Shown one piece after another: positions 11,448 to 44,390 of a stretch of DNA of 64,000 nucleotides (position 1 is its first letter; the number at the start of each line of letters is the position of its first letter). This stretch comes from an uncultured Alphaproteobacteria bacterium (GTDB lineage: Bacteria > Pseudomonadota > Alphaproteobacteria > ATCC43930 > CGMCC-115725). Both the position numbers and the translations under genes were made by a program. The notes under the pieces are model-generated. The model saw only the letters and a program-made list of their open reading frames with translations. It was not told the DNA's origin and ran no database searches. The stretch covers positions 643,168 through 707,167 of the forward strand of contig CAWCOH010000002.1 in assembly GCA_963797115.1 (NCBI GenBank), written 5' to 3'.

Positions 11448-12490
11448 CTCAAATAGTCGACAATGACCTGCACCGCTTTGTCCGCTGCATGTCCGTCTCC
11501 AAAAGCGTTGACGTCACGCCGCGGTGCGTAGCCCGGCCCCTTCCATAAGCGGTTCCACCCTGCCGACACCGTCTCCACCCACTCCGTCTCACTCCGCATG
11601 GTGACGCAAGGTATCCGATGGAAATAGGCTTCCTTCTGCAATCCGCCGGAATCGGTGAAGACGGTCTTCGCCGACTGCACCAGCCGATGCATGTCGAGAT
11701 AGCCGAGGGGATCGCAGACGATGATTTCGCCGAGATCGAGCCTCCATTCTGCAATCCGGTTGCGCGTTCGCGGATGCACCGGAAACACCACGACGTGCTC
11801 GCGCGTCAGCGCCTTAAGATAGGCGATTGCCTCGCTTAATGCCTGACGGTCGTCAGTGGTTTCGGCACGGTGCAGAGTGGCGACGACATAGGAACGCGCG
11901 CCGATACCGAACCGATCCAGCACGTCAGATCGATCAAAGTTGACGGCAGCAAACCGGACGGTGTCGTACATCACATCACCGACATGATGCACCCCGTTGA
12001 TAATTCCTTCCCGGCGCAGATTTTCCACCGCGGTTTCGGTGGGGCAGAGCAGGAGAGTGCTGACATGGTCAGCCAACACTCGGTTGATCTCTTCGGGCAT
12101 GCGGCGATTGAAAGACCGCAGCCCCGCTTCGAGGTGGGCGATTGGGAGATGCAGCTTCGCGGCGGCCAATGCGCCGGCGAGCGTCGATGTCGTATCGCCG
12201 GGCACGACCACGAGGTCGGGCGCCTCGGTTACCATGATTTTCTCGAGAGCCTCGATCATCCGACCGGTCATCTTGCCGTGGCTGCCACTGTGGATCCCGA
12301 GGTTCACATTCGGCTCGGAAATCTGCAGCTCGTCAAAAAAGATACGCGATAGGCTCGGATCGAAATGCTGGCCAGTATGGACGAGTATCTCGGTGATACC
12401 GCCATGGGCGGCTATCGCCCGCGACATGGCGGCGGCTTTGACGAATTGCGGCCGTGCACCGACGACCGTGAGGATACGCCACGTCGTCAC
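11411..12490 (-). CDS. wecB: UDP-N-acetylglucosamine (or UDP-GlcNAc3NAcA) 2-epimerase, non-hydrolysing
   Basis: 359 aa with ILTVVGARPQFVKAAAM, HTGQHFD and HLEAGLRSF motifs. Its 4-nt ATGA overlap with the upstream SDR gene suggests translational coupling. Confidence 0.92.
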   Translation of the reverse strand: MTTWRILTVVGARPQFVKAAAMSRAIAAHGGITEILVHTGQHFDPSLSRIFFDELQISEPNVNLGIHSGSHGKMTGRMIEALEKIMVTEAPDLVVVPGDTTSTLAGALAAAKLHLPIAHLEAGLRSFNRRMPEEINRVLADHVSTLLLCPTETAVENLRREGIINGVHHVGDVMYDTVRFAAVNFDRSDVLDRFGIGARSYVVATLHRAETTDDRQALSEAIAYLKALTREHVVVFPVHPRTRNRIAEWRLDLGEIIVCDPLGYLDMHRLVQSAKTVFTDSGGLQKEAYFHRIPCVTMRSETEWVETVSAGWNRLWKGPGYAPRRDVNAFGDGHAADKAVQVIVDYLRCPTKVESKPSC

Positions 12491-13575
12491 GGGTAGACTG
12501 CGCGCAGCTCGGGCAAAAAGCCGGAGTGCTGCAGCATGCAGCGCCGGATCGTCTCTCGATTATCGCGCGTCCAGTCGATAGTGCGCTGAAGGCCCTCGGC
12601 CAGGAGCGTGAGGACGGCAAATTGCAATCTGTCACGAGCCTTGTCCGTCGCGCCGAAGCGTCTGCCCGAGCGGTCCCAGTCGCGGGCCCCGGCAATCGCC
12701 AAGGGAGTGTGATTACTTGTCAAGCGATTGATTAGGCCTGCCAAGTCGAGAATCGACGTCTCCACCCCGGAGGCAAGATTGTAGACCTCGCCAGGCTCGC
12801 CGTTTGCCGCGCAAGCAAGAAGGCCACGCACGATGTCGCCGACAAAAATAAAATCGCGCGTAGCGACTCCGCCGTTTTCAATCGGCAGCGCCTCATCGTG
12901 CAGCGCCTTCCAGATGAAAGTCGGTATGACGTTTCGCCACACCGTATGTGGCGTGCCGCGCCACCGTCCGGCACCAAGGATCTCGCCCGGCCCATAGACG
13001 TTTTGGAACCGCGCCTTCACAACAGGCAGGCCATAGCGTACGAAGTAATAATTACCGTACATCTCGCCAACGAGCTTTGAAATGCTATAGGGGCTATCAT
13101 GGTACAGCGAGACCGGCATGTCTTCGGTCGTGGCACTCGCCTCGTCGAAGGTCTTGATTGCGGCCGCACAGCCGGCAGAAGCATAAACTACCTTCTGCAG
13201 CGAGCGGATACCTTTCAAGCGGTCGAACAGCTTCAGCGTCGTCAAGGTATTGTTGGCGTGATCGGCAAGGGGGTCGTGGATGGATGACTGGTTGCCGTGA
13301 TAGCAGGCAAGGTGAAAGACGAAATCGAGATCATTCGGCAGTGATTTGAGCACTGCGTCGTCAGCGATCGAGCCAAGGATAAATTCAACAGCGGAATGCT
13401 TCGGCACGTTCGCGATATCGGCCGACACCAGATTGTCGACGATAAAGAGGAGTTGCGGACCTTGCGAGAGCAACTGGCGCACAAGGTTTCCACCGACAAA
13501 CCCCGCGCCACCGACCACGAGGATTGCGCTACCCCTTATGCCCGAACCCATCACGACGGCGACTGCGCGGCCCAC
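12487..13575 (-). CDS. NAD-dependent sugar-nucleotide epimerase/dehydratase (extended SDR)
   Basis: Rossmann motif VVGGAGFVGGNL and catalytic YSISK. An alternative start at ATG 13551 would overlap the upstream stop by 1 nt. Confidence 0.85.
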   Translation of the reverse strand: MGRAVAVVMGSGIRGSAILVVGGAGFVGGNLVRQLLSQGPQLLFIVDNLVSADIANVPKHSAVEFILGSIADDAVLKSLPNDLDFVFHLACYHGNQSSIHDPLADHANNTLTTLKLFDRLKGIRSLQKVVYASAGCAAAIKTFDEASATTEDMPVSLYHDSPYSISKLVGEMYGNYYFVRYGLPVVKARFQNVYGPGEILGAGRWRGTPHTVWRNVIPTFIWKALHDEALPIENGGVATRDFIFVGDIVRGLLACAANGEPGEVYNLASGVETSILDLAGLINRLTSNHTPLAIAGARDWDRSGRRFGATDKARDRLQFAVLTLLAEGLQRTIDWTRDNRETIRRCMLQHSGFLPELRAVYP

Positions 13576-14495
13576 GGCTTCAGATGGCTAAAGGTCGCCG
13601 AAACGCCATGCGCGTCGTACCAACAAAGGACGCGTCTGATCGTCTCGGCGAAATCAACCTTGGCCTTCCAGCCAAGCAGCGCGAAGGTGTAGGCGGGATC
13701 GAGCACCACGGCAGCGATGTCATCGGCAGCCACTGGAACCACCTGAACCGGTGTAGCCGTATCGACACCGAGATGCGCCGCTACCTCCTCGAAAACCTCC
13801 TTGATCGAGTGCCCGAGCCCGGTCGACACGTTGAAGATGCCTGTCGGTGCGTCCTCGCGCAGGACTATATCCATCAGATCGATAAAATCGGCCATGTCGA
13901 GGAAGTCGCGCACCGCATCGCTGCAGAAGCATTTCTGGCCGGCCTTGAGCCGCTGATAGAAGGCCGGGATCGGTCCGATCGCAAGACGCGGCCCGCAAAT
14001 GTTGGCAAGACGCAGAGACACCCAGGAGAGCTCGCTCTGGGCGACGTAGGCTTCTCCGGCGGTCTTGCTAATGCCATAGCTAGTAATCGGCCGGGTCGGA
14101 TGATCGGCCGGGATCGGCACACGCTCCGGCCGGCCATAGCACAACGCCGTCTGGAAATTGACGAATCGCTTGACGCCAGCGCGCCTTGCCGCCTCTAGCA
14201 CGTTGATAGTGCCGACCACATTGGTACCCGCGTCCTCGCGCCAGTTCCCTGGATCCTTGTAGGCGGCGGCGCTGTGAATGACATGCGTGGGTGCAAAGCA
14301 GGCAAAGACTTCGTCGACGAAATCACGATCGGCAATCGTCCCGCAACCAGCCGAAAGGCCCGGAACATCGGGCAGAGCTTCGCGTCGACCGGTGGCAAAG
14401 TTGTCGATCGCGAGGATTTCGTGGCCGCGGGGCAGGTAAGTCTCGATCAGGTTCGAGCCGAGACAGCCCGCGCCGCCGGTGATCAGAACCCTCAC
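13551..14495 (-). CDS. NAD-dependent epimerase/dehydratase (extended SDR), tandem paralogue A
   Basis: MRVLITGGAGCLGSNL, IDNFATGRRE and catalytic YGISK. It is a paralogue of the next gene. Confidence 0.88.
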   Translation of the reverse strand: MRVLITGGAGCLGSNLIETYLPRGHEILAIDNFATGRREALPDVPGLSAGCGTIADRDFVDEVFACFAPTHVIHSAAAYKDPGNWREDAGTNVVGTINVLEAARRAGVKRFVNFQTALCYGRPERVPIPADHPTRPITSYGISKTAGEAYVAQSELSWVSLRLANICGPRLAIGPIPAFYQRLKAGQKCFCSDAVRDFLDMADFIDLMDIVLREDAPTGIFNVSTGLGHSIKEVFEEVAAHLGVDTATPVQVVPVAADDIAAVVLDPAYTFALLGWKAKVDFAETIRRVLCWYDAHGVSATFSHLKPWAAQSPS

Positions 14496-15430
14496 GAATT
14501 CCCCTCGAAGCGGAGATGCGTGTAGCCGCCCTGGACCCCTCGGTCCCGGTAATAGGCGACGGTCTCTTCGACAATATCGTCAAGCGGCGTAAAGGTCATC
14601 TCCCCGAAATCGCGTATGGTGCGCGCCGGGTCGAGCAGGATGGTGGGCGCATCGTCGGCTGCAAGCGGCCGGATTTCTGGAGCCGGGTATTCGTTGAGCT
14701 TCATCGCCCGGACCACCGCGTCGTAGAGATCTTTGATCGCAACATCCCGGCCGGAAGAGAAATGGTAGGTGCCGTTCCCGATGCCGTCGGCAGCGCTCAA
14801 TACAATGCGCGCGAGATCCTGCACAAAGACGAAATCGCGCCGCGCCTCGGTGACAAAACAGCGCTTTCCCTGCGACAGCCTCTCGAAAAAAATCGGCAAT
14901 GGGCCGCTGACGTTGCGCGGCCCAATCACATTAGCGAGACGAAAGGTGATCCAGTCGACCCCGCTCATTTCGATGTAGCGCTCGCCGGCTGTTTTGGAGA
15001 TCGCATAGCTGTTGCCCGCCGGATTGACCGGGTGATCCAGCGTGATCGGCTGTTCGAGCGGGTTGGTACCGTAGCACAAGGCGGTCTGAAAGTAGATCAG
15101 CCGGCCGACCTTGTGGCCCTTGCAGGCGCCCGCGACGTTGGCGCTGCCGACGCAGTTGGTCAGGGCATCCGATTCCCAGTCGTCCGGGTCCTTGTAGGAG
15201 GCGGCGGTGTGGACGACCACATCGGGACGAAAATCGCCGACCAGACCGTCGACGATCCGCGCGTCGGCGATGCTCTCCTCGACCAAGCGGAGGCGCGGGT
15301 GCGGCGACAGGTTGTCTCGCCGGCCAGTCGCAAAATTATCGATCGCGACCACCTCGTCGCCGCGGGCGAGCAGCAAGTCGCTGACCGTGGAGCCGACCAG
15401 CCCGGAGCCGCCGGTCACAAGCACCTTCAT
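14492..15430 (-). CDS. NAD-dependent epimerase/dehydratase (extended SDR), tandem paralogue B
   Basis: Start set at MKVLVTGGSGLVGS (ATG 15430). Carries IDNFATGRRD and catalytic YAISK. 4-nt overlap with the downstream gene. Confidence 0.88.
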   Translation of the reverse strand: MKVLVTGGSGLVGSTVSDLLLARGDEVVAIDNFATGRRDNLSPHPRLRLVEESIADARIVDGLVGDFRPDVVVHTAASYKDPDDWESDALTNCVGSANVAGACKGHKVGRLIYFQTALCYGTNPLEQPITLDHPVNPAGNSYAISKTAGERYIEMSGVDWITFRLANVIGPRNVSGPLPIFFERLSQGKRCFVTEARRDFVFVQDLARIVLSAADGIGNGTYHFSSGRDVAIKDLYDAVVRAMKLNEYPAPEIRPLAADDAPTILLDPARTIRDFGEMTFTPLDDIVEETVAYYRDRGVQGGYTHLRFEGNS

Positions 15431-15473
15431 CTCAGTCGCTCTTACCCTGGGTTTCGGACCGGGCACACATCGG

Positions 15474-17291
15474 CTAATCGACGCATCTGTGAGCACTCAT
15501 TTCGAGCAGCAGCAATTCAAAGAACGGAATATCCGAAGACATCCCCGATTGGACTTTGTACCGGTCGATAGCCGTCTTCCTCGCTTCTCGGCCGCACGAT
15601 TCTTCATGGCAGCGAACCAATTCGGCAAGGGCATCCTCACCCGCGCCGGTCCTGATCTCCGCGCGCACTTGGTCCGGCGGCAAGTTCAGTTCTTCTGCAA
15701 TCGCAGACAACGACAAGAAGCCGTCGGGTCCACGGCGAAGATCGAGCTTGTGCAATTGGACCAGAGCCTGGTCTTCGATCTCGTCATACGGAGTTAATCC
15801 CCTTCGGTGGTCGAGTCCGGTGGCCGTCGCGAGTGCGGGTCCTGGAAGATCGACCTTTGCGAAGCAGTTCGCTTGTCCTTGGGTGACATAGAGCGCGTAG
15901 GGCGCGCTCGGCGAGCTCAGCACTACGCCTCTCATTACGGTGTGTGCTTCAATAAAATACATCAGCGCGCCAAACAGCCGCAATGTATCATTTTTCAGCA
16001 ACAGAAGCCCATCGGTCTTCAGCGCCTGACCAAGTTTGACCTTCACCAGCGTGCCGTATGACGGCACTGCGAGAAAGCCATCAATCGACACCGGTACCGT
16101 CGCCAGATGGACATGGCCGTTCCACCCGATCCCGAGCGACAACGATCGATCACGATCGGGAAGCGGCTCGGCTTGATGCGCGTGTTGCACGATCAGCGCC
16201 TTAATCGATCGTTCGGCGCTCGACGGCGAGGGATCGATGATCACCACCTTGGGCGAAAATGTGGACAATATGGCTAGGTCGGTGCCGACGGGTATTGTCG
16301 AATACGGCATCTGGAGCCCTGCCGGACCCGGGGTTGTCCCCCCGACGACGTCGAGCAGTTTGCCAACCCGACCAGCGAAAGCGATACGGTAGATCCCTCC
16401 GGTATGGGCATCGGTAATCGTAAGGATATTGTTTTCGTCGACTGCTATCCCCGTCGGCCACAGAAACTCCAGGCAGCTCGCGTTCCACCCGGGCCGGCCA
16501 AAGGAGCCTATTTTTTGGCCGGTGCTCAGATCCAAGACGAAGATCTGTCTCAGTTCCAGGGACGAAACGAACACCAAATCACCGAGGATCGCGACGCCAT
16601 GGGCGAAGGTGATGTCCGTCTTCCATTTCTCTACATATTGGCCGCCGGCTCGTGCGAAGGCTGTTGCGCTGTTGCCGTCGAAATTCGCGGATACGACCCA
16701 CGACTCATTCGGCGTGATTGCAATATTTTCAGGAGAAATCAGCCCATCACCGGTAAGCGCTTGCTCAAAGACTATCCGGGCTCCAGCAATACTTCCAATC
16801 AGTATATTGTCGGCCTCATAGTTGGCCAGAAACACCTTGCCCGTCTCAGGACCGATCGCGATGCCGGTAGGTACGTATTTCTTGTTGTTGAGATTGCCGA
16901 GGTCGGCATCTAGCCTTGCAACCTCTCCGGTCCGAATATTCAGAGACCGAATATCGAGGTAGGTGGCGATCAATAAAGTTTGCCGATCGGCCGTCAAAGC
17001 ACCGGCAGCCAGCAGGCCGTCGAGCTGCGGCCGCACCATCGTTATAGCGTCAGCTGCGACATGCAGCGGTGCGGGAGCAAAACGGGGATCGCCGACGCGG
17101 TCGATAAAAGGATAAGTAGATTCCACGGCGCGGGTCTCGGCCCGGCATTCGGAGGGAACCTCGACCCGGATCGCATCGGCGGCCGCCGCGGAGCCGAGCG
17201 CAAAAACTGATACACCGGCGATCTGCAGGAGCCACGCTTCAGCTCGCCGAAGCACCGCGCCGGCAGCAGTCAAAAAGGTCGCGCCTGGCAT
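15474..17291 (-). CDS. exported beta-propeller-repeat protein of unknown function
   Basis: 605 aa. The N-terminus has RR plus a hydrophobic stretch AWLLQIAGVSVFALGSAAAA (signal peptide or anchor). Four or more repeats of the P.GIA(I/V) type (PTGIAIGPETGKVFLANY, PENIAITPNESWVVSANF, AHGVAILGDLVFVSS, PTGIAVDENNILTITD) fit NHL/YVTN-like blades. I do not recognise the C-terminal ~250 aa. Confidence 0.7.
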   Translation of the reverse strand: MPGATFLTAAGAVLRRAEAWLLQIAGVSVFALGSAAAADAIRVEVPSECRAETRAVESTYPFIDRVGDPRFAPAPLHVAADAITMVRPQLDGLLAAGALTADRQTLLIATYLDIRSLNIRTGEVARLDADLGNLNNKKYVPTGIAIGPETGKVFLANYEADNILIGSIAGARIVFEQALTGDGLISPENIAITPNESWVVSANFDGNSATAFARAGGQYVEKWKTDITFAHGVAILGDLVFVSSLELRQIFVLDLSTGQKIGSFGRPGWNASCLEFLWPTGIAVDENNILTITDAHTGGIYRIAFAGRVGKLLDVVGGTTPGPAGLQMPYSTIPVGTDLAILSTFSPKVVIIDPSPSSAERSIKALIVQHAHQAEPLPDRDRSLSLGIGWNGHVHLATVPVSIDGFLAVPSYGTLVKVKLGQALKTDGLLLLKNDTLRLFGALMYFIEAHTVMRGVVLSSPSAPYALYVTQGQANCFAKVDLPGPALATATGLDHRRGLTPYDEIEDQALVQLHKLDLRRGPDGFLSLSAIAEELNLPPDQVRAEIRTGAGEDALAELVRCHEESCGREARKTAIDRYKVQSGMSSDIPFFELLLLEMSAHRCVD

Positions 17292-17331: not shown

Positions 17332-19146
17332 TCAACAGGCAGAAGCTTCCACGTTATCCGGGCTGAGCCCCGCACGCGAAACCAGTTCGGCGGCCTTTTC
17401 CGGCGCGACGCAGTTTGTCGTCAGCCAATGGCGCAGTTTTCCAGCCACTTCGTCGTCGGACACTGTCGCGGGGTCCGCGCCACCCATCGCCTGCATGATA
17501 TCGGCGTCCTCATCGGCTCGCTCGCTCGCTATGAAAATCGGCATGGATATGGTGCCTTCGGTCTTCTGATTCTTCAGCTGTTGCTCAGCCGTCGTGTAAC
17601 GCCGCCACCGAATTGCCGTGGTGTAGAACTTGGGATCCTTCGTTATGCGCCATAGTTCTGTGACCAGCTTGGTGTGCCATTCGTGATAGAGTCCATTGAT
17701 CTGCGACCACTGGTTGATGGTGTTAGGCAGAGGGAAATGAGCGACACATTCCGTTTCGGTGCTACCATGATCGCTTGGGAATATCTCCATATAACCTTTG
17801 CTACTCGCCCGGTAATCATAGGTGGCGAGAGTAGGGACAGCACATTCGGGCGATCTATAGTGCACGTTGATATCCATTCCAGCAACGTTTACCGGATCAT
17901 GATCTATTGTCAGCCGTCCCGGCAGCAATCGCACCTTTCCCATGCCGTTCAGCTTACGCCCCCACGCGGAGACATCCTTCCAACCCTCTCCCCACGCTTG
18001 GTTGCCAGCATAGGTTGAGGTCTCCTTTTCCCCCAGCCGCAGCACGCTGGGCTCACTTACGGTCGAGGTTACCGACACCTCGCGAATTTCAGCACCGGGA
18101 ACTGTTGAGACTAAGGTCAGCATAACATCCAGAGCACGCGGTCGCGCCTGATATATCGACCAGTAGCCAGTATCAAAACGCAACAGCATGCGTTTGGCAC
18201 TCGCCACACCTTCTCTGAAGGCGTCGCCCACCCGCTCGTCACCGGTCAATTTGTACAGATGATAGAGCATCACCGTCGAATATAAGTGGCCATTCAAGAT
18301 CATAGGGGCGAAACCATACGGTACAGGAATTTCTTCGAACCAAGGAACACCACCGACCTCACATCGAATGCCCCCACGCTCGCAAGGAACTGTGAACGCG
18401 ACACCCGCGTGCAACGCCAAGTCTGAGTAAGAGCCATCGAGGCTCTTGCGATACGCAAGGATAAGAGACTTGATAACATCGGCCTGAGCGAATGCCGACG
18501 GCCACCCGCTCTTAATGACGATATTGTTAAACGTATGATCGAATGTATAATGCCAGACTGTCGCGTCTCCATCGATCTTGACTTGATTTTCTATTAGCCA
18601 ATCGATCGCTACCTTTTCCAACCGAGAAAGCGAAGGTTCACGTTTTAATGCCTCCTCCAAATCAAGGTCAACGAAATCGATACCGCTTGCTTGGGCTGAG
18701 ATGTTCGCTATGTGTCTTTTTACGCCGCCAGCTATGTGGACGGCCCTGACATCGTGTTCGTCCAAGAACGACGAAAATTGCGGTGTCCGCTCGGGCAGGT
18801 TCAGCTGACCATCGGGACCTGGCTCGATGACGTCGAACGACACAACAGGGGAGCTGCTGCTGACATGCACCGAAGCTGCGCTGTCGTCCGCCGAGCTGCT
18901 ATTCGTAAACGCCGCACCGAAGACACAGATCACAGCAGCACAGAGCTTGGTCTTGTCTGCAACTCGACAATTATGGGCAAGTAGGCAGGAGCCGCTCACG
19001 TTTCGGCTCCATAATCTACCGTGCAAGAAGAAAATCCCTCTTTCGGAGGCGCAGATGGAGCGATCAGCACCCGTCCCCGGCGGCCATCGCGGTCTCCTCG
19101 CCAGCCGCCTCGGCCAACATCCGGCGGTATTGGGCGGCGCGGTCAT
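17332..19146 (-). CDS. exported D-glucuronyl C5-epimerase-like protein (GLCE C-terminal domain homologue)
   Basis: GWPSAFAQADVIKSLILAY, WFEEIP...MILNGHLYSTVMLYHLYKLTGDE, RMLLRFDTGYWSIYQ and LYHEWHTKLVTELWRITKDPKFYTTAIRWRRY align motif for motif with the human GLCE C-terminal domain as I recall it. A signal-peptide-like DKTKLCAAVICVFGAAFTNSSSA is present. The true start may be GTG near 18999, because the ATG at 19146 overlaps the upstream gene by 83 nt. Confidence 0.75.
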   Translation of the reverse strand: MTAPPNTAGCWPRRLARRPRWPPGTGADRSICASERGIFFLHGRLWSRNVSGSCLLAHNCRVADKTKLCAAVICVFGAAFTNSSSADDSAASVHVSSSSPVVSFDVIEPGPDGQLNLPERTPQFSSFLDEHDVRAVHIAGGVKRHIANISAQASGIDFVDLDLEEALKREPSLSRLEKVAIDWLIENQVKIDGDATVWHYTFDHTFNNIVIKSGWPSAFAQADVIKSLILAYRKSLDGSYSDLALHAGVAFTVPCERGGIRCEVGGVPWFEEIPVPYGFAPMILNGHLYSTVMLYHLYKLTGDERVGDAFREGVASAKRMLLRFDTGYWSIYQARPRALDVMLTLVSTVPGAEIREVSVTSTVSEPSVLRLGEKETSTYAGNQAWGEGWKDVSAWGRKLNGMGKVRLLPGRLTIDHDPVNVAGMDINVHYRSPECAVPTLATYDYRASSKGYMEIFPSDHGSTETECVAHFPLPNTINQWSQINGLYHEWHTKLVTELWRITKDPKFYTTAIRWRRYTTAEQQLKNQKTEGTISMPIFIASERADEDADIMQAMGGADPATVSDDEVAGKLRHWLTTNCVAPEKAAELVSRAGLSPDNVEASAC

Positions 19147-21022
19147 GGAAGATCTGGTACCACAATTCGAGGCTCAACAGACCCCAGGTTTTGCGCGAAA
19201 AACGGCTGGCGCTCTCGAAATTGGCGAGAACCGCATTAGCGTTTAGATAGGGGCGCTGGCGCGCATTGCGGCTGCGGAAGGTGTCCTGCACGAGGTCGTG
19301 CAACTCGCCTGAAAACCACTCCTTCAGCGGAACCGGAAAGCCCATCTTGTCACGGCGTGCCGCGATTGGCTCCGGCAGCTCACCCTCGTAGGCGAGCTTC
19401 AGCAAATGCTTCATTTGGCCGCCTCGGAACTTGACGTCGGCCGGCACGGTGGCGGCAAATTCGATCAACGGGTGGTCGAGCAAGGGCACTCGGCTCTCCA
19501 GCCCATGCGCCATGCTCATCCGGTCCTCGACCTGGAGCAAGGCCGGCAGCAGGCATTTGAAATCAAAATGAGTCATCTTGTCGAAATAGGCCTCTTTATG
19601 GACGTTGCTCTGACTATTGAAGATTGCAAGGAAGCTTTCTAGTACCCGATCCCGATCGAGCGATGACCAGTCGACTTCCTGCTCCATATCGGTGGAGCGG
19701 TCGACGAGCCGGAAATAGCGCTGGTCGAGCCCGCCGAAGAGGCCTTCTCGCCAAAACTCGGTCATTAACGGTTTGTACTCGCGCAATAGCCCAAGGTTAG
19801 GTACAATCGATTCTATGGTGACGACAAAGTTGCCGTTCTTGTACGTGCCATCGAGTGCTGCTTTGATGCATTGCTCGAAGTAGGCAAGCAGGTAACGGGC
19901 ATAGCCGCCGAAGATCTCGTCGCCACCCTGACCTCCGAGGACCACCTTCAAATGGCGTGCGGCGAGTTGCGAGACCATGAACTGTGGGAACGAGCCGGGC
20001 CCGGCCACCGGAAAATCGAGGTGGTACAGCACATCTGCGATGTGGTCGCGAAAGTGCTGGGCAGTGATGTCTATGACGTGGAGACGGGCGCCAGCCTCTG
20101 CGACCGCAGTCGCCGCGTAATCGCTCTCGTCGTAGCCCTGGAATTGGGTAAAGCGGCCGTGGAAGCAGTTGGCGATGCCGCGATCGGTTTTGCCGGCGAG
20201 GATCGCGATCAGGCTCGAATCCACCCCCCCGGAGACATAGGCGCCGACTGGCACATCGCTGCGCAGGTGCATCCGTATCGAGTTGTCCAGCAGCTCGACC
20301 AGACGCTTCTCGAAAAATCGTGCGCTATGGTCGTAATCTATCTCGTAACGGACGTCCCAATAGCGCCAAACGCGGACCACGCCGTTCTCGACGGCCAGCG
20401 CATGACCCGGCAAAAGTTGTTTGACGCCTCGGAACAGGGTGGCCTCGCCGATCGTGTACTGGAAAGTCAGATATTCGGCGAGCGCGTCGGGATCGCTTTC
20501 GATCGAGGGCAGGAAAGGAAGTAGTGCTTTTGCCTCCGAGGCGAACACGAACTGATTTCCGACAACAGCATAATAGAACGGTTTGATGCCGAAGCGGTCA
20601 CGTGCGCAGAATAGGCGCTTGCGCCGGTCGTCCCAGATCGCAAAGGCGAACATGCCGCGCAGCCGGTCGAGACAGCCGGATTCGTAACGGTCATAGGCGG
20701 CGAGGAGGCATTCGGTGTCCGAAGTCGAGCGAAAATCCCAGCCGGGCGACAGCGCGTCACGAAGCTCCAGATAGTTGTAGACCTCACCATTGTAGGTGAT
20801 CGCCGTTGGTCCCGGCGCGACCATCGGCTGGCGCGCGGCATCGCTCAGATCGATGATCGCGAGCCGGCGGTGGACGAGCCCGGCGCAACGCGATCCGGCT
20901 ATCCAGGCGCCGTCGCCGTCCGGCCCGCGATGCGCAACCATGGTTCCGAGCAGATCGAGCGCGGCGCCGAGCCGGACAACCGGCGACCCGTCCGTCGAAA
21001 CGATACCCGCGATCCCGCACAT
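19064..21022 (-). CDS. AsnB-family glutamine-dependent amidotransferase (paralogue 2)
   Basis: Start set at MCGIAG (ATG 21022). Carries RLAIIDLS..ARQPM and the PP-loop YVSGGVDSS. Confidence 0.93.
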   Translation of the reverse strand: MCGIAGIVSTDGSPVVRLGAALDLLGTMVAHRGPDGDGAWIAGSRCAGLVHRRLAIIDLSDAARQPMVAPGPTAITYNGEVYNYLELRDALSPGWDFRSTSDTECLLAAYDRYESGCLDRLRGMFAFAIWDDRRKRLFCARDRFGIKPFYYAVVGNQFVFASEAKALLPFLPSIESDPDALAEYLTFQYTIGEATLFRGVKQLLPGHALAVENGVVRVWRYWDVRYEIDYDHSARFFEKRLVELLDNSIRMHLRSDVPVGAYVSGGVDSSLIAILAGKTDRGIANCFHGRFTQFQGYDESDYAATAVAEAGARLHVIDITAQHFRDHIADVLYHLDFPVAGPGSFPQFMVSQLAARHLKVVLGGQGGDEIFGGYARYLLAYFEQCIKAALDGTYKNGNFVVTIESIVPNLGLLREYKPLMTEFWREGLFGGLDQRYFRLVDRSTDMEQEVDWSSLDRDRVLESFLAIFNSQSNVHKEAYFDKMTHFDFKCLLPALLQVEDRMSMAHGLESRVPLLDHPLIEFAATVPADVKFRGGQMKHLLKLAYEGELPEPIAARRDKMGFPVPLKEWFSGELHDLVQDTFRSRNARQRPYLNANAVLANFESASRFSRKTWGLLSLELWYQIFHDRAAQYRRMLAEAAGEETAMAAGDGC

Positions 21023-21476
21023 AGCTGCTCGCCTAAAAACTAAGACCATTGTGGCCGGGTTGGGTCCAGCGACCCCACACGGCAGCTCGAGCTGCGAAAC
21101 CCCTGCGTGGCGGCCGGTTCACTCCCGGCTTAACGGGAAAAGTCGATATTTCGCCATCTCGCGGTATAAGACCGCACAGGGTGGTGATCTGGTCTGACCA
21201 GAACGGCCTAGGCGGGTTGCGACTCGGCATTCCTAAAATTGCCCAATTTGTGCGATATCTCTGCCAATGCTCAGGTGGCCCAGGCAAACCACCCGTTGAG
21301 CCGGCCCACGATCTCGGCGCACTCGAGCTCTACAACCTGAAGACGATCTCCCGCTGCAGACCCGCTGCAGGTGCAGCGGTCTGTCATATATGAGACAACC
21401 ACAAGTAGGAGGGTGTTCGAGCCGGCATCAGACCGTTACCGCTACCCTGCCGCCGACATATGGCGGCGCTCTCCGG

Positions 21477-28535: not shown

Positions 28536-28703
28536 GTAGGGTCCAAGAGAGCCCGCTGTCGGGGCAGCGGTCACGCGGCTACTGGGCGCGACTATGGCAA
28601 TCGGGCGAACCCGATACCGCAAACAATCAATCGGCGTGTACTGGCGACAGCGGCCGCAATAGCAGGCATAATTTCGCGAGCGTGCGAGCAAATCACTCGT
28701 CGT

Positions 28704-33352: not shown

Positions 33353-35269
33353 TCAGGCGGCGGCCGCGCCGCCGGTTTCCGCCATCGGCGCCGCGATTTC
33401 AGCCGCGGCGCGATCACCGGGAGCATCAGTAAGACCGCGGATGACGACAGCCACCGGTAACTCTACTAATCCCAGTGCGATCGAGCCGCTGTAATCTTCA
33501 TTCACCTTAAAGTAGATACATCGATCCCAGTGACACAAGAAAGGAATTCGATGTGAGTGGGGCCAATGATAGTCGAACATCGGAAGCAGTTCGAAGCTTC
33601 CGACGTATTCTCCCTGGCGTATATTGGGCCGGTCGAGACGAAAGAGAACTTCGGTCTTTCCAAGTGCAAGGCCAGCCTCGAACTTGTGAACGCCGAGAAA
33701 CACACGATTGCCTTGGGCGTCGAAGATAATCCCAGCAAGCCAGCAAATCGGAAGCCGAACTCGAATTTCGATCGTAATCTTGAACGTGATCGCGTCCCCC
33801 AGCCCAAAGATATGCCGGTCTGCCGCGCCGGTGGCCTCGCAAGTGGAAATGCGCAGAAAGCGGGCTTCCTCAGTTTCCCACTTGTCCCGTGGGGCATCGA
33901 GTGGACCGCCATCTGATGGCGCGACATCATTACCCATCGTCGAGCACACATCTGCGACGCCAGTGTCGCCGACGAAAACATCCGGGGCGGTAGGGGCGAT
34001 CGCCACCTCATCAATTCGCCAAACCCGCGTCCTGTCGTTCTGGGTCAGAAGACCGAGGCGTCGAAAACCACCCGGTTCGTGGAGTTCGATTGCGATTTCT
34101 TCCCCCGGCGCGGCATCGTGCTCGATTTCGAACAACCTCGCTGAGCCAGCTAAGTCCGCAGGAACGCGAAAAAATATTGGGGCATGTGCATAAATGCCAC
34201 CAGTGTCTTCCAGACAACGCACGCGGCGCCCAGCGGTGAGGGTAGGCCGGCTCCAGATCATTAAACTGGGGTCAGTTTGGATATAACCCGGCTGCGTTAC
34301 GTCATTGTCCATTGGTTCGCCCAGCCACACCTCAAACCGTTTGCCACCGTCAAAAACAAGCGCCAAGCGATGCACTGCATGGCTGAGCGTGGGCAGACCC
34401 CCGTCCGCTACAACCAAACGAAACAACATTTCTTGCTCGTCGCTGCAACCTTCATCGGAGCCGTCGCGGCGCCGCATGCGTGAGACTGCCTGGCTGGTTT
34501 GGGCCCGCAGCCGCGCCTCCTCGCGTTCGATGACCGAGGCATAATAGGCTTTACTGATGTCGAGCGTCGGTCCTTCCGCCTTGATCCGGCCGCGGTCGAG
34601 CCAGATCGCCCGCTCGCACAACCTCTGCACACTTGAGATGTCGTGACTGACGAACAGGACCGTGGCGCCGGTTTCCTTAGTCAGGCGTCGCATCCGCTCG
34701 GTACACTTGCCCGCGAAATAAGCGTCGCCCGCCCCTAGTATCTCGTCGATGATGAGCACCTCGGGAACAATCGCAGTGGAGGTCGAAAATGCCAGCCGCG
34801 CATACATCCCGGTCGAATAAGTCTTGACTGGCTGGTCGATGAATTCGGCGAGTTCGGAAAAATCGACGATCTCCTCGAAGCGCTCGGCCGCATCGCGCCC
34901 GGTGATCCCTTGATAGGCGAGTGCGGAGTAGATGTTTTGCCGGCCGGTAAACTCAGGGTGGAAGCCGGTACCGAGATCCATCAGCGCCTGGATCGCGCCT
35001 CGGACCCGGACCGAGCCGGAGCTCGGCTGCAACCGTCCGCAGATGATGCTCAGAAGCGTTGATTTGCCGGCCCCGTTTTGACCGATAATGGCGAGGCTTT
35101 CGCCCCGCCGAATCTCAAGTGAAATCCCGCGCAACGCCCAGAACTCGTCGCAAGCATTTTTCGGCAGTGGTAAACCAAGGGCCTCGAACACCCGGTAACG
35201 CGGATGCCGGTAACGCTTGAACACCCGCGAAACGTCGTGCACCGCTATCGCGGTATTCTCCTCAGACAT
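33353..35269 (-). CDS. wzt: polysaccharide ABC-exporter ATP-binding protein Wzt with a long two-part C-terminal extension
   Basis: Walker A GQNGAGKSTLL, the signature region YSTGMYARLAFS and Walker B LIIDEILGAGD. About 390 extra residues follow. The last ~150 (FLRISTCEATG...ITFKITIEI...GIIFDAQGNRVFLGVHKF...LRLDRPNIRQGEYVGSFEL) look like a Wzt_C beta-sandwich carbohydrate-binding module. Confidence 0.9.
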   Translation of the reverse strand: MSEENTAIAVHDVSRVFKRYRHPRYRVFEALGLPLPKNACDEFWALRGISLEIRRGESLAIIGQNGAGKSTLLSIICGRLQPSSGSVRVRGAIQALMDLGTGFHPEFTGRQNIYSALAYQGITGRDAAERFEEIVDFSELAEFIDQPVKTYSTGMYARLAFSTSTAIVPEVLIIDEILGAGDAYFAGKCTERMRRLTKETGATVLFVSHDISSVQRLCERAIWLDRGRIKAEGPTLDISKAYYASVIEREEARLRAQTSQAVSRMRRRDGSDEGCSDEQEMLFRLVVADGGLPTLSHAVHRLALVFDGGKRFEVWLGEPMDNDVTQPGYIQTDPSLMIWSRPTLTAGRRVRCLEDTGGIYAHAPIFFRVPADLAGSARLFEIEHDAAPGEEIAIELHEPGGFRRLGLLTQNDRTRVWRIDEVAIAPTAPDVFVGDTGVADVCSTMGNDVAPSDGGPLDAPRDKWETEEARFLRISTCEATGAADRHIFGLGDAITFKITIEIRVRLPICWLAGIIFDAQGNRVFLGVHKFEAGLALGKTEVLFRLDRPNIRQGEYVGSFELLPMFDYHWPHSHRIPFLCHWDRCIYFKVNEDYSGSIALGLVELPVAVVIRGLTDAPGDRAAAEIAAPMAETGGAAAA

Positions 35270-36047
35270 ATTCGGCGAACACCGGTTTCAGGCGTCGAAA
35301 CAATTCGAAGCCGAGCCAAAATGTGCTGAAGGCAATGACCGTAAAGAACAGCCAGAACCGTGGTGAAAATACTCCGAAGATCAGCACCTGCCGATAAAGT
35401 TCGATTATATAAAATAATGGGTTGAGATAACCGATCGCCAGCAGCTGATGAGGAATCATCTCGCGCGTGTATCCGATTGGAGAGACGATCATCAAGAACA
35501 GCACGAATATGCCGATGGCCTGCGCTGTATCGCGCAAGAAGACGTTCATCGCAGATAAGATCCAACCGACCCCAATCGAAAATATTATCTGCAGCAACAG
35601 CAATGGGATGATCAGGACCTGGGTGAAATGAAACTCCCCGCGGCTCCACAGCGCAAAAAGCAAGCCGACGAGACCGATCGTCATTGATAAAGAGCTAGAC
35701 ATCACAGATTTAACTGGTACTAGCTCGATTGGAAACATCGTGTTCTTGATAAGATGTTTGTTGCTGACTACCGAGCTTACAGAGCTGCCCAACACTTCGG
35801 CGAATCCGATAAATGGTATCAGCCCCGCGAATATAATGAGGATGTATTCGATCGGGGAGTAACTTTGTAGCTGTACTCGTAAAATCAGTGCGTAAATGCT
35901 AGCATAAAGTCCGAGAAAAAGAAACGGATAGAGAATCGCCCAGCTCAAACCGAAGGCGGTCCCGACGTAGCGGGAGCGTATTTCCACGAGGGTTGTGGCA
36001 TACAGGATCCGCCGCGATCGAAACAACAGTCGCAGGGCACTGATCAA
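35262..36047 (-). CDS. wzm: ABC-2 type polysaccharide exporter permease Wzm
   Basis: 261 aa with six hydrophobic segments. It is AT-richer than its surroundings, overlaps wzt by 8 nt and has the typical N-terminal LF.SRR....T..EIR.RY..T.LG..W. Confidence 0.88.
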   Translation of the reverse strand: MISALRLLFRSRRILYATTLVEIRSRYVGTAFGLSWAILYPFLFLGLYASIYALILRVQLQSYSPIEYILIIFAGLIPFIGFAEVLGSSVSSVVSNKHLIKNTMFPIELVPVKSVMSSSLSMTIGLVGLLFALWSRGEFHFTQVLIIPLLLLQIIFSIGVGWILSAMNVFLRDTAQAIGIFVLFLMIVSPIGYTREMIPHQLLAIGYLNPLFYIIELYRQVLIFGVFSPRFWLFFTVIAFSTFWLGFELFRRLKPVFAEYV

Positions 36048-36085
36048 GGCTATAACTCGGGGGTCGACCTTGCGCGACCTGCGCC

Positions 36086-42564: not shown

Positions 42565-44390
<1,826 letters not shown>

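What the first reader, a model, noticed from the sequence alone, without database searches (positions are those of the whole stretch)
17332..19146. Signal-peptide-bearing bacterial homologue of animal D-glucuronyl C5-epimerase inside the glycan locus
The C-terminal ~330 residues align motif by motif with the human GLCE C-terminal domain as I remember it:
- GWPSAFAQADVIKSLILAY versus WYSAMAQGQAISTLVRAY
- WFEEIP....MILNGHLYSTVMLYHLYKLTGDE versus WYEEYP....[22 protein letters not shown]
- FDTGYWSIYQ versus YDTGSGTIYDLRH
- HEWHTKLVTEL...KFYTTAIRWRRY versus DYHTTHINQL...IFKEFVKRWKSY

The N-terminus (DKTKLCAAVICVFGAAFTNSSSA) looks like a Sec signal. The enzyme would then act outside the cytoplasm, at polymer level, as AlgG does in alginate or GLCE in the Golgi. 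A periplasmic polymer-level uronate epimerase in an ABC-transporter-dependent pathway is unusual, because such glycans are normally finished in the cytoplasm. The start codon is ambiguous: ATG 19146 overlaps the upstream AsnB gene by 83 nt, and GTG near 18999 precedes the signal peptide.
Basis: partly seen in the sequence, partly recalled or inferred. Interest (0 to 1): 0.78.

Follow-up and report, generated by a model that had tools for sequence, protein, structure and literature searches.

The report
Exported GLCE-like epimerase in O-antigen locus
This gene encodes a secreted bacterial relative of the animal heparan-sulfate C5-epimerase; it sits in a Bordetella-like O-antigen gene cluster and probably flips uronic-acid sugars of the surface polysaccharide after export, a predicted but still untested kind of enzyme.

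Summary
The ORF is real and belongs to Pfam PF06662 (E 3e-33). Animal GLCE structures are its best sequence and fold matches in the PDB. Four of five GLCE catalytic residues are invariant (E499, N510, Y560, Y578 equivalents); Y500 is replaced by I/V/L/F. The best start is GTG 18999 (555 aa, identical to an NCBI model), not ATG 19146. Export is supported by a Sec-type leader in 20 of 20 close homologues and by three conserved or co-varying Cys pairs; SignalP could not be run.

The locus is wbm-like: WbmF/G/H orthologues, three AsnB-type amidotransferases, WbpB/D/E/I-type genes and Wzm/Wzt. In relatives the gene travels with the same diacetamido-uronic acid, amidotransferase and ABC-transporter genes. 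It is present in some such loci and absent from otherwise near-identical ones.

New findings:
- A rare 144-aa beta-sandwich insert splits the catalytic domain.
- A natural fusion joins this enzyme to a homologue of the downstream beta-propeller gene.
- Exported relatives occur in Pseudomonas and Burkholderia prophages.

Prokaryotic GLCE homologues with signal peptides in O-antigen clusters were catalogued in 2011, and Bordetella WbmE already shows post-export O-antigen modification. I rate it a new variant of a known kind. Activity and substrate are inferred only.

The parts
17332..18999 (-). Coding sequence of the GLCE-like protein (555 aa plus stop at 17332-17334), starting at GTG 18999
   Evidence: ORF listing. 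GGAG lies 7 nt upstream of GTG 18999. The product is identical to NCBI-sourced protein P0001. PF06662 E 3e-33.
19000..19146 (-). In-frame upstream extension to ATG 19146, probably not translated; contains the alternative start TTG 19026
   Evidence: It overlaps the AsnB-like gene (stop at 19064) by 83 nt. It is not part of the deposited protein model. Sequence read.
18889..18999 (-). Predicted Sec signal peptide, residues 1-37: basic n-region (R12, K16, K18), h-region LCAAVICVFGAAF (residues 19-31, nt 18907-18945), c-region TNSSSA, predicted cleavage SSA|DD
   Evidence: Kyte-Doolittle 12-mer mean of 2.61. An equivalent leader is present in 20 of 20 close homologues although the sequence itself is not conserved. 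Coordinates checked. SignalP was not available.
18718..18870 (-). Small N-terminal beta-strand region (residues 44-94), beginning with the conserved VSFDV motif
   Evidence: AlphaFold2 secondary structure; family alignment.
18136..18711 (-). First part of the helical catalytic domain (residues 97-288). Contains WPSAFAQAD, WFEE(I)P (E223 = GLCE E499, I224 = Y500), ILNGH (N236 = N510), DTGYWSIY (Y283 = Y560) and the Cys pair C206/C213.
   Evidence: Pfam stretch; PDB alignments; Foldseek GLCE hits over about 165 columns, rmsd about 2.7 A; column conservation.
17704..18135 (-). Subfamily-specific all-beta insert (residues 289-432), a beta-sandwich with the Cys pair C386/C418, inserted between the Y560-equivalent and the Y578-equivalent
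   Evidence: Models (pLDDT 89 when modelled alone). No significant PDB fold match, best E 0.11. Found in only 13 of 1.84 billion representative proteins, all or nearly all of the same subfamily.
17572..17703 (-). Second part of the catalytic domain (residues 433-476): YHEWH motif (Y438 = GLCE Y578, H439 = H579, H442 = H582) and RWRRY
   Evidence: The insert-excised alignment reaches the C-terminus of GLCE. The register was fixed by the multiple alignment with insert-free homologues. Invariance shown.
17335..17532 (-). C-terminal helical extension (residues 490-555) absent from GLCE; Cys pair C530/C555 present or absent together
   Evidence: Model helices 496-505, 515-528 and 533-542. The two Cys are present in the same 8 sequences. 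No Pfam match.
15474..17291 (-). Downstream gene: exported beta-propeller-like protein (605 aa) of unknown activity, functionally linked to the epimerase-like gene
   Evidence: It starts 40 nt after the stop of the finding's gene. Only weak NHL, PQQ_2 and Lactonase hits. It is homologous (27% identity, E 1e-31) to the C-terminal half of the natural fusion protein P0151, whose N-terminal half is this epimerase subfamily. Signal-peptide-like N-termini across its family.
19064..21049 (-). Upstream AsnB-type glutamine amidotransferase, the candidate uronamide-forming enzyme and the conserved neighbour of the epimerase-like gene
   Evidence: Pfam and NCBIfam. 65% identical counterparts lie in L081, L082 and L084, next to the homologue.
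12487..15496 (-). Three SDR genes, one-to-one orthologues of the Bordetella WbmF, WbmG and WbmH structures (UDP-ManNAc3NAcA to UDP-L-GalNAc3NAcA pathway)
   Evidence: phmmer against PDB: 2pzj 7e-136, 2pzk 9e-136, 2q1w 8e-144. Pathway statement in PMC3849452.
11411..12490 (-). WbpI-type UDP-GlcNAc(3NAcA) 2-epimerase homologue
   Evidence: PF02350 E 3e-96. 57-58% identical neighbours of the homologues in L081 and L083.
33353..38865 (-). Wzt (ABC ATPase with Wzt_C), Wzm, WbpE-type aminotransferase and a WbpB/WbpD-type fusion: export and diacetamido-uronic acid precursor genes
   Evidence: Pfam.

Best explanation
The gene encodes a Sec-exported member of the D-glucuronyl C5-epimerase (PF06662, GLCE) family. 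It is most likely soluble in the periplasm, or possibly anchored to the membrane.

Its locus makes a Bordetella wbm-like polysaccharide built from 2,3-diacetamido-2,3-dideoxy-hexuronic acids, partly amidated, and exports it through a Wzm/Wzt ABC transporter.

The most likely function is tailoring after export. The enzyme would bind the finished chain in the cleft of its helical barrel. It would abstract the C5 proton of a uronic acid or uronamide residue and re-protonate from the opposite face, using the conserved Glu/Tyr/Tyr/Asn (plus His) set. D-manno residues would become L-gulo residues (D-ManNAc3NAcA(N) to L-GulNAc3NAcA(N)), or the equivalent inversion would occur on another uronate in the chain. 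This would be the GLCE-fold counterpart of what AlgG does to alginate.

The beta-sandwich insert and the adjacent exported beta-propeller protein (fused to it in one relative) probably help bind or further process the same polymer.

Shown: homology, fold, conservation of four of five catalytic positions, leader-like N-termini, gene context, and the fusion.
Inferred: export, epimerase rather than another C5-proton chemistry, the substrate, and the timing after export.
For: Family and fold:
- PF06662 E 3e-33.
- Only GLCE is hit among PDB sequences.
- GLCE chains are the 8 best Foldseek matches.

Active site:
- The GlcE residues named as catalytic are E499, Y500, N510, Y560 and Y578 (PMC13308652 citing Debarnot 2019).
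- Their equivalents E223, N236, Y283 and Y438 are invariant in 21 of 21 aligned sequences, as is H442. H439 is conserved in 20 of 21.

Export:
- Short hydrophobic leaders with basic n-regions and small residues at -3/-1 occur in 20 of 20 close homologues.
- Only 2 of 53 typical short bacterial homologues have any hydrophobic N-terminal segment.
- Cys pairs are fully conserved (C206/C213, C386/C418) or co-vary (C530/C555), as expected for disulfides.

Substrate context:
- WbmF/G/H orthologues, three AsnB-like genes, WbpB/D/E/I-type genes and Wzm/Wzt.
- The same gene set surrounds homologues only 42-53% identical: L081/L082, L083, L084, the P0029 locus, L086 and L087.

Accessory (tailoring) behaviour:
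- Near-identical wbm-like loci L088 and L089 lack the gene.
- L086 has two tandem copies.

Precedent: Bordetella WbmE is a periplasmic enzyme that modifies the completed O-chain of the homologous ABC-exported polymer (PMC2615507).

Link to the neighbour: natural fusion P0151.
Against: - No activity data exist for this subfamily.
- Y500, one of the five GlcE catalytic residues, is Ile here, so the mechanism cannot be identical to GlcE.
- Proton abstraction at C5 is shared by epimerases and beta-eliminating lyases, and sequence cannot separate them.
- SignalP or another trained predictor could not be run. The leader has an unusually long n-region (18 residues from GTG 18999).
- I could not superpose coordinates to confirm that Y438 reaches the active site across the 144-aa insert.
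- The glycan of this organism (a Chthoniobacterales-like verrucomicrobium by FumC similarity) is unknown.
- The locus has at least six glycosyltransferase genes, so other uronic acids may be present.
- One homologue (P0020, L085) lies outside any visible glycan locus.
Confidence: 0.5

Rival explanations
1. It is an exported GLCE-fold enzyme, but it acts as a polysaccharide lyase (beta-eliminase) rather than an epimerase. It would trim the chains or clear polymer that accumulates in the periplasm, as AlgL does in the alginate operon.
For: C5 proton abstraction is the shared first step of uronate epimerases and lyases (established enzymology). The acid/base candidate Y500 is replaced, so the re-protonation geometry may differ. 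Phage-borne relatives sit next to tailspike genes, where depolymerases are common. The fused or adjacent beta-propeller has a fold class used by some uronate lyases (from memory).
Against: The characterised members of PF06662 are epimerases (GLCE; Bermanella enzyme, cited in PMC13308652). No polysaccharide lyase appears among the 50 best Foldseek matches. The gene is co-transcribed in orientation with biosynthetic genes and is optional, which fits tailoring.
Confidence: 0.12
2. It is an exported C5-epimerase, but its substrate is not a diacetamido-uronic acid or uronamide residue. It acts on another uronic acid in the repeat or linker, on a different surface glycan of the cell, or on an undecaprenyl-linked intermediate at the outer face of the inner membrane.
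For: The locus has at least six glycosyltransferase genes and unassigned ORFs, so the repeat is probably not a homopolymer. Characterised relatives act on GlcA. One homologue is not in a visible glycan locus (L085).
Against: Across six independent loci the constant companions are WbpA/B/D/E/I-type genes and AsnB-type amidotransferases. No UDP-glucose dehydrogenase or other uronic-acid pathway turned up among the locus ORFs of 200 aa or more that I scanned with Pfam.
Confidence: 0.2
3. The N-terminal hydrophobic segment is not an export signal, or it anchors the protein with the catalytic domain in the cytoplasm. The enzyme would then act before ABC export, as glycans in this pathway are normally finished.
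For: SignalP was not run. The n-region is long. The textbook model of ABC-dependent O-antigen synthesis finishes the chain in the cytoplasm (stated in PMC2615507). Most short bacterial PF06662 proteins have no leader.
Against: Positive charges precede the h-region (positive-inside rule, so the C-terminus is outside). The h-regions are 12-15 residues, too short for a stable membrane span, and small residues follow them. Paired and co-varying cysteines are present. In the fusion P0151 one leader serves both domains, while the free-standing propeller family has its own leaders.
Confidence: 0.07
4. The protein has lost catalysis and serves as a polysaccharide-binding or scaffolding subunit, for example for the beta-propeller partner.
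For: Y500 is lost. There are large non-catalytic additions: the beta-sandwich insert and the C-terminal helices.
Against: E223, N236, Y283, Y438 and H442 are invariant, and H439 is conserved in 20 of 21, across homologues down to 26-38% identity. That is hard to explain without catalysis. Other insert-bearing lineages and the phage proteins also lack Y500 yet keep the rest of the site.
Confidence: 0.05

Closest known systems
Animal heparan-sulfate D-glucuronyl C5-epimerase (GLCE; PDB 4PW2/4PXQ zebrafish, 6HZZ/6I01/6I02 human)
   Same: Same Pfam family and the same helical catalytic fold; about 30% identity over the core. Equivalents of E499, N510, Y560, Y578, H579 and H582 are conserved. Both are polymer-level enzymes that enter the secretory or export pathway.
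   Different: Y500 is Ile here. The catalytic domain is split by a 144-aa beta-sandwich. The N-terminal beta-hairpin and beta-sandwich domains of GLCE are replaced by a roughly 50-residue beta region. There is an extra C-terminal helical domain. It has a cleavable-looking Sec leader instead of a Golgi type-II anchor (the anchor is from memory). The substrate context is diacetamido-uronic acids or uronamides, not N-sulfated heparosan.
Bermanella marisrubri RED65 glucuronyl C5-epimerase and the prokaryotic pfam06662 candidates catalogued by Raedts et al. 2011 (PMC3068255), including E. coli O112ab, Shigella boydii 15 and Vibrio cholerae
   Same: Bacterial PF06662 proteins located in O-antigen or capsule clusters. 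Many have predicted signal peptides. They were proposed to have substrate-specific paralogues.
   Different: Those proteins are mostly 300-450 aa without the insert. The typical short forms I sampled keep the E-E-Y motif and lack leaders. None was linked to Wbp/Wbm-type diacetamido-uronic acid loci, amidotransferases or ABC transporters. I could not obtain the Bermanella sequence to compare it directly.
AlgG, the periplasmic mannuronan C5-epimerase of alginate biosynthesis
   Same: The proposed role is the same: periplasmic, polymer-level D-manno to L-gulo inversion of a uronan, encoded inside the biosynthetic cluster.
   Different: Unrelated fold: AlgG is a right-handed beta-helix (established knowledge; not hit by Pfam or Foldseek here). 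It serves a synthase-dependent rather than an ABC-transporter-dependent pathway.
Bordetella bronchiseptica WbmE and the wbm O-antigen locus (PMC2615507)
   Same: Same locus type: WbmF/G/H orthologues, three AsnB-type amidotransferases and Wzm/Wzt. WbmE is an accessory gene encoding a signal-peptide-bearing periplasmic enzyme that edits the finished uronic/uronamide polymer after export.
   Different: WbmE is a papain-like transglutaminase-fold deamidase with a Cys-His-Asp triad. It is not homologous and performs a different reaction.

Membership tests
D-glucuronyl C5-epimerase family (Pfam PF06662, GLCE-like) | Significant match to the C5-epim_C profile above the gathering score | tested here: met
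   E 3.2e-33, 115.3 bits against a 23.3-bit cut-off. Two stretches, because of the insert.
D-glucuronyl C5-epimerase family (Pfam PF06662, GLCE-like) | Helical barrel catalytic fold most similar to the GLCE structures | tested here: met
   AlphaFold2 model pLDDT 84.8. The Foldseek top 8 hits are all GLCE (E 2e-6 to 7e-5, rmsd 2.5-2.9 A, 28-32% identity over about 165 columns). Generic (alpha/alpha)6 enzymes follow.
D-glucuronyl C5-epimerase family (Pfam PF06662, GLCE-like) | Catalytic residues E499, N510, Y560 and Y578 (human numbering; list from PMC13308652 citing Debarnot 2019) | tested here: met
   E223, N236, Y283 and Y438 are invariant in 21 of 21 aligned sequences. The spatial position of Y438 was not checked because no coordinates were available.
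D-glucuronyl C5-epimerase family (Pfam PF06662, GLCE-like) | Catalytic residue Y500 | tested here: not met
   Ile224 here; I/V/L/F across the subfamily. Most short bacterial homologues keep E-E-Y.
D-glucuronyl C5-epimerase family (Pfam PF06662, GLCE-like) | GlcA to IdoA epimerase activity on heparosan-type chains | not testable with these tools
   Needs an enzyme assay. The gene context argues for a different uronic acid substrate.
Exported (Sec-dependent) periplasmic protein | N-terminal signal peptide with n-, h- and c-regions and a signal peptidase I site | tested here: inconclusive
   A heuristic analysis is positive: h-region Kyte-Doolittle mean 2.61, basic n-region, SSA|DD site, 20 of 20 homologues with a similar leader, and conserved Cys pairs. 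No trained predictor or experiment was available.
AlgG-type mannuronan C5-epimerases | Right-handed beta-helix (CASH) fold | tested here: not met
   The model is helical plus beta-sandwich. There are no beta-helix Pfam or Foldseek matches. It is a functional analogue only.
WbmE-type periplasmic O-chain deamidases | Transglutaminase-core fold with a Cys-His-Asp triad | tested here: not met
   Only PF06662 is detected. WbmE is described as a papain-like transglutaminase in PMC2615507.
Bordetella wbm-type O-antigen locus (context) | WbmF/G/H SDR trio, multiple AsnB-type amidotransferases, Wzm/Wzt | tested here: met
   2pzj, 2pzk and 2q1w are matched one-to-one at E 1e-136 to 1e-144. Three Asn_synthase genes and an ABC-2/ABC_tran+Wzt_C pair are present. 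That these PDB entries are WbmF/G/H is from memory; it is consistent with PMC3849452.

The most novel reading that the evidence does not exclude
This subfamily may be the missing enzyme class that makes L-gulo-configured 2,3-diacetamido-uronic acids or uronamides by inverting C5 on the finished polymer outside the cytoplasm. That would be the first post-export epimerisation of an ABC-transporter-exported O-antigen, and a GLCE-fold analogue of AlgG. It would work together with a new exported beta-propeller partner. The leader-bearing relatives carried next to tailspike genes by Pseudomonas aeruginosa and Burkholderia prophages would then be seroconverting epimerases. From memory, D-ManNAc3NAcA and L-GulNAc3NAcA distinguish serotypes within P. 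aeruginosa serogroup O2, and the responsible epimerase is unassigned.
Probability: 0.3. Interest if true: 0.72.

Novelty: new variant of a known kind. Interest (0 to 1): 0.5.

Why it matters
O-antigens made by the ABC-transporter route are textbook examples of glycans finished in the cytoplasm. Bordetella WbmE is so far the one proven exception. A second, chemically different post-export editing step would show that periplasmic tailoring of such polymers is a wider strategy for varying surface charge and antigenicity.

It would also assign a biosynthetic origin to L-gulo diacetamido-uronic sugars. It would extend the substrate range of the GLCE fold beyond glycosaminoglycans, which is of interest for chemo-enzymatic glycan engineering. 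And it would give a testable candidate for phage-driven serotype conversion in Pseudomonas and Burkholderia.

If the enzyme turns out to be an ordinary paralogue with GlcA specificity, the finding is a routine annotation.

Tried and rejected
1. I first recalled that Bordetella WbmE might be the same protein family. Reading PMC2615507 showed it is a transglutaminase-fold deamidase: a contextual precedent, not a homologue.
2. Pairwise phmmer paired GLCE Y578-H579 with W441-H442. I rejected this after the multiple alignment with insert-free homologues fixed the Y-H-x-x-H register.
3. I tried to identify the insert's function. The Foldseek search of the isolated domain gave nothing significant. 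The exhaustive HMMER search found it only within this subfamily.
4. I tried to identify the beta-propeller partner's activity. Pfam and NCBIfam hits were weak. A family profile against PDB sequences gave only generic propellers at E 0.003 or worse.
5. An early tblastn suggested the propeller was unique to this genome (0 of 84 loci). This was overturned by the fusion P0151 and about 40 homologues.
6. The source genome could not be retrieved. Exact look-ups of P0001 and FumC found no record. The species-representative genome collection lacks it. Taxonomy rests on 88-90% FumC identity to Chthoniobacterales/Verrucomicrobiota MAG proteins.
7. Papers not held: Debarnot 2019, Raedts 2013, Preston 1999 and the Lam 2011 review. 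The catalytic residue list is therefore taken second-hand from PMC13308652.
8. Literature searches linking PF06662 to diacetamido-uronic acids or to P. aeruginosa phages found nothing relevant.
9. There were no plasmid-borne relatives.
10. The promoter and terminator scan around the gene was not informative.
Full report
1. OBSERVATION

The ORF 17332..19146 (minus strand, 604 aa from the first ATG) exists as described. It overlaps the stop (19064) of the upstream asparagine-synthase-like gene by 83 nt.

The DNA shows GGAG 7 nt before GTG 18999 and GAGGG 9 nt before TTG 19026. A protein deposited in NCBI/ENA (P0001, 555 aa, on an 878,720-bp contig) is 100% identical and corresponds to the GTG 18999 start. 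I therefore treat 17332-18999 as the gene.

- Pfam PF06662 (C5-epim_C) scores E 3.2e-33.
- Zebrafish and human GLCE are the only PDB sequences matched (E about 1e-15).
- GLCE chains are the eight best Foldseek matches of an AlphaFold2 model with pLDDT 84.8 and pTM 0.84.

2. ANATOMY

The model and the family alignment give these parts, in P0001 residue numbering:
- A low-confidence N-terminus containing a hydrophobic helix (residues 1-37).
- A small beta region opening with the conserved VSFDV motif (44-94).
- A helical domain (97-288).
- An all-beta domain (289-432).
- Two long helices that complete the catalytic domain (433-476).
- A three-helix C-terminal extension (490-555).

The Pfam match comes in two stretches because the beta domain interrupts the catalytic domain. 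When I deleted residues 289-428 in silico, the alignment to GLCE ran to the last residues of the animal enzyme and the E-value improved to 1e-18.

The insert folds confidently on its own (pLDDT 89) but has no significant structural neighbour in the PDB (best E 0.11). In an exhaustive HMMER scan of 1.84 billion representative proteins it recurs in only 13 proteins. Ten of these are at E<1e-10, and essentially all are the same subfamily. So this is a rare, elaborated branch of the family.

3. ACTIVE SITE

PMC13308652, citing Debarnot et al. 2019, names E499, Y500, N510, Y560 and Y578 as the key catalytic residues of GlcE.

Using human and zebrafish segments plus about 60 bacterial homologues extracted from fetched loci, MAFFT places E223=E499, I224=Y500, N236=N510, Y283=Y560 and Y438=Y578. 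It also places H439=H579 and H442=H582, in a Y-H-x-x-H motif shared by all branches. Pairwise phmmer had shifted this last motif by three residues.

E223, N236, Y283, Y438 and H442 are invariant in 21 of 21 aligned sequences, and H439 is conserved in 20 of 21. Position 224 is I/V/L/F. Most short bacterial homologues keep E-E-Y. The lineages that carry an insert (this subfamily, Bosea, Desulfocapsa, Burkholderia multivorans, several Planctomycetes, Proteocatella) all lack the Tyr. The site therefore looks functional but is not identical to GlcE. I could not check the 3D geometry because model coordinates are not exposed.

4. EXPORT

SignalP was not available, so the evidence is indirect.
- The protein has a basic n-region (R12, K16, K18), a 13-residue h-region (LCAAVICVFGAAF, Kyte-Doolittle mean 2.61) and TNSSSA|DD.
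- All 20 close homologues have an equivalent leader although the sequences are unrelated. Several are textbook cases, such as MKAYFATIIFISLVFASLSSA|ND and MLKPFATILAFTLPALANA|QE.
- Only 2 of 53 typical short PF06662 proteins have any hydrophobic segment N-terminal of the core.
- Cysteines come in pairs. C206/C213 are 100% conserved. C386 is 100% conserved, and its likely partner C418 is 85% conserved (17 of 20), with a Cys one column earlier in the other three. C530 and C555 occur in the same 8 sequences and are both absent from the other 12.

Together these make an extracytoplasmic location likely. My estimate is about 0.85.

5. CONTEXT

The locus on the minus strand reads as follows:
- HTH regulator.
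- WbpB/WbpD-type fusion (37249-38865).
- WbpE-type aminotransferase.
- Wzm.
- Wzt with a Wzt_C domain.
- Several GT4 glycosyltransferases.
- AsnB-like (24370-26298).
- Glycosyltransferases.
- AsnB-like (19064-21049).
- The finding's gene.
- A beta-propeller-like gene (15474-17291).
- Three SDR genes.
- WbpI-type 2-epimerase.
- A glycosyltransferase.
- AsnB-like (8212-10152).

The three SDRs match three Bordetella bronchiseptica structures one-to-one: 2pzj 7e-136, 2pzk 9e-136 and 2q1w 8e-144. From memory these are WbmF, WbmG and WbmH. PMC3849452 states that wbmF/G/H convert UDP-ManNAc3NAcA to UDP-GalNAc3NAcA. PMC2615507 states that the wbm locus has three glutamine amidotransferases (wbmC, wbmI, wbmZ) and wzm/wzt.

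The window therefore carries a wbm-like locus for a diacetamido-uronic acid/uronamide polymer exported by an ABC transporter. The host is not Bordetella. FumC in the window is 88-90% identical to Chthoniobacterales/Verrucomicrobiota MAG proteins. The locus has lower GC than its flanks, and an IS21 transposase lies at 42565-43584. Together these suggest horizontal acquisition.

6. COMPARATIVE EVIDENCE

Close homologues number 29 clusters at 90% identity, almost all from metagenomes. They sit in the same kind of locus:
- L081/L082: two AsnB, Wzm, Wzt+Wzt_C, WbpI-like, and WbpA/B/D/E-type genes.
- L083: Wzm, Wzt, methyltransferase-GT, AsnB, WbpI-like.
- L084: AsnB fragments immediately upstream.
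- The P0029 locus: SDR trio, two AsnB, WbpA/B/D/E-type genes.
- L086: two tandem paralogues plus AsnB.
- L087: see the fusion described below.

Two loci almost collinear with the window (L088, L089) have the propeller gene but no epimerase-like gene. L081, L083 and L086 have the epimerase-like gene but no propeller. Both genes thus behave as optional accessories, which is what one expects of tailoring enzymes rather than core synthesis.

The constant companions are the WbpI-type 2-epimerase (which makes the D-manno sugar) and AsnB-type amidotransferases. The SDR trio is not constant. This is why I favour D-ManNAc3NAcA(N) to L-GulNAc3NAcA(N) as the reaction. That assignment is an inference.

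7. THE PARTNER

P0151 (1112 aa, L087) is a natural fusion. Residues 1 to about 560 are this subfamily, including the leader, the insert and the YHDWH motif. Residues 590-951 are homologous to the window's downstream gene (27% identity, E 1e-31).

The fused propeller part has no leader of its own, whereas most free-standing propeller homologues do. This argues for a real fusion and for a shared compartment.

The propeller family has about 40 members and no Pfam domain. Only generic beta-propellers are weakly matched in the PDB, so it has no assignable activity.

8. MECHANISM AND RIVALS

Best reading (confidence about 0.5): an exported GLCE-fold enzyme binds the exported chain and inverts C5 of uronic or uronamide residues by deprotonation and re-protonation. 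This is the same job AlgG does on alginate, with an unrelated fold.

Rivals:
- A lyase using the same first step (0.12). No lyase appears among the Foldseek hits, but the phage and tailspike contexts keep this alive.
- A different uronic substrate (0.2).
- Cytoplasmic action before export (0.07).
- A non-catalytic binder (0.05).

9. COMPARISON WITH WHAT IS KNOWN

Raedts et al. 2011 (PMC3068255) already listed prokaryotic pfam06662 candidates. They noted predicted signal peptides 'for many sequences', showed the candidates in O-antigen-like clusters, and proposed paralogues with different substrate specificities. The Bermanella enzyme is the only bacterial one with measured activity (PMC13308652). 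WbmE shows that ABC-exported wbm-type O-chains can be edited in the periplasm (PMC2615507).

The general idea is therefore not new. What is new here is the particular branch:
- Leader-bearing.
- Split by a rare beta-sandwich.
- Y500-less.
- Tied to Wbp/Wbm diacetamido-uronamide loci and to a new propeller partner.

I found no paper in the held library connecting PF06662 with such sugars, but the library is incomplete.

10. VERDICT

I rate it a new variant of a known kind, with interest 0.5. The most novel reading not excluded is post-export C5 epimerisation creating L-gulo diacetamido-uronic sugars, with prophage-borne relatives acting as seroconversion epimerases. I give that reading a probability of about 0.3.

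Noticed in passing
window 15474-17291 (-); L087:5097-8435: The gene just downstream encodes an exported beta-propeller-like protein with no Pfam family. It is fused to the epimerase-like protein in one metagenomic relative (P0151, 1112 aa). It also occurs alone in near-identical wbm-like loci (L088, L089). Its activity is unknown.
   Followed up: yes
L090:5689-7371 (+) = Pseudomonas phage vB_Pae_CF57a MK511002.1 30693-32375 (QBI80035.1), and 14 sister phages: P. aeruginosa temperate phages from cystic fibrosis lungs encode a 560-aa PF06662 protein (E 4e-35, uninterrupted domain). It has a lipoprotein-type leader (VIAA|C), E-E-M at the Y500 position and a weak discoidin-like C-terminus. It lies directly downstream of the tailspike gene, a typical seroconversion position. 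It is a candidate surface-glycan C5-epimerase, or possibly a depolymerase.
   Followed up: partly
L006:9914-11518 (+), Burkholderia multivorans ABIP2226 chromosome 1: This is the only full-length, insert-bearing relative in a cultured species (32% identity). It lies beside phage baseplate genes (Baseplate_J, gp41 hub) and an Acyl_transf_3 gene, not in an O-antigen locus. It looks like a prophage moron.
   Followed up: partly
84 PF06662 loci (L001-L084): An AsnB-type amidotransferase lies within 10 kb of the PF06662 gene in 42 of 84 loci from many phyla, mostly Acidobacteriota. No control was run for how common AsnB genes are in glycan loci generally, so the significance is unknown.
   Followed up: no
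L086:2182-5623: Two tandem paralogues of the subfamily (P0026 and P0024) sit side by side next to an AsnB gene and a methyltransferase-glycosyltransferase fusion. This hints at two specificities.
   Followed up: no
window 1-64000; 2753-4159; 42565-43584: The host appears to be a Chthoniobacterales-like verrucomicrobium: FumC is 88-90% identical to such MAG proteins. Yet the locus carries very close orthologues of Bordetella WbmF/G/H (E about 1e-140). Locus GC is 55-60% against 62-69% in the flanks, and an IS21 transposase is adjacent. All this suggests horizontal transfer of a wbm-type island.
   Followed up: partly
window 37249-38865 (-): WbpB-type oxidoreductase (GFO_IDH_MocA) and WbpD-type hexapeptide acetyltransferase are fused into one 538-aa protein. 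In L081 and the P0029 locus they are separate genes; in L088 they are fused, as in the window.
   Followed up: no
window 28704-31670 (-), 31856-32749 (-), 27333-28691 (-): A 988-aa protein has a GT4 domain only in its C-terminal half and about 500 unassigned N-terminal residues. A 297-aa ORF has no family match. A 452-aa protein has only a weak Glyco_trans_1_2 hit. These may be chain-terminating or modifying functions.
   Followed up: no
short PF06662 homologues in L009-L079: The typical bacterial form is about 325 aa, mostly from Acidobacteriota/Terriglobales. It keeps the full E-E-Y, N, Y and YHxxH set but shows no hydrophobic N-terminus (2 of 53 do), so it is probably cytoplasmic. That contrasts with the statement in Raedts 2011 that many candidates have signal peptides.
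   Followed up: partly
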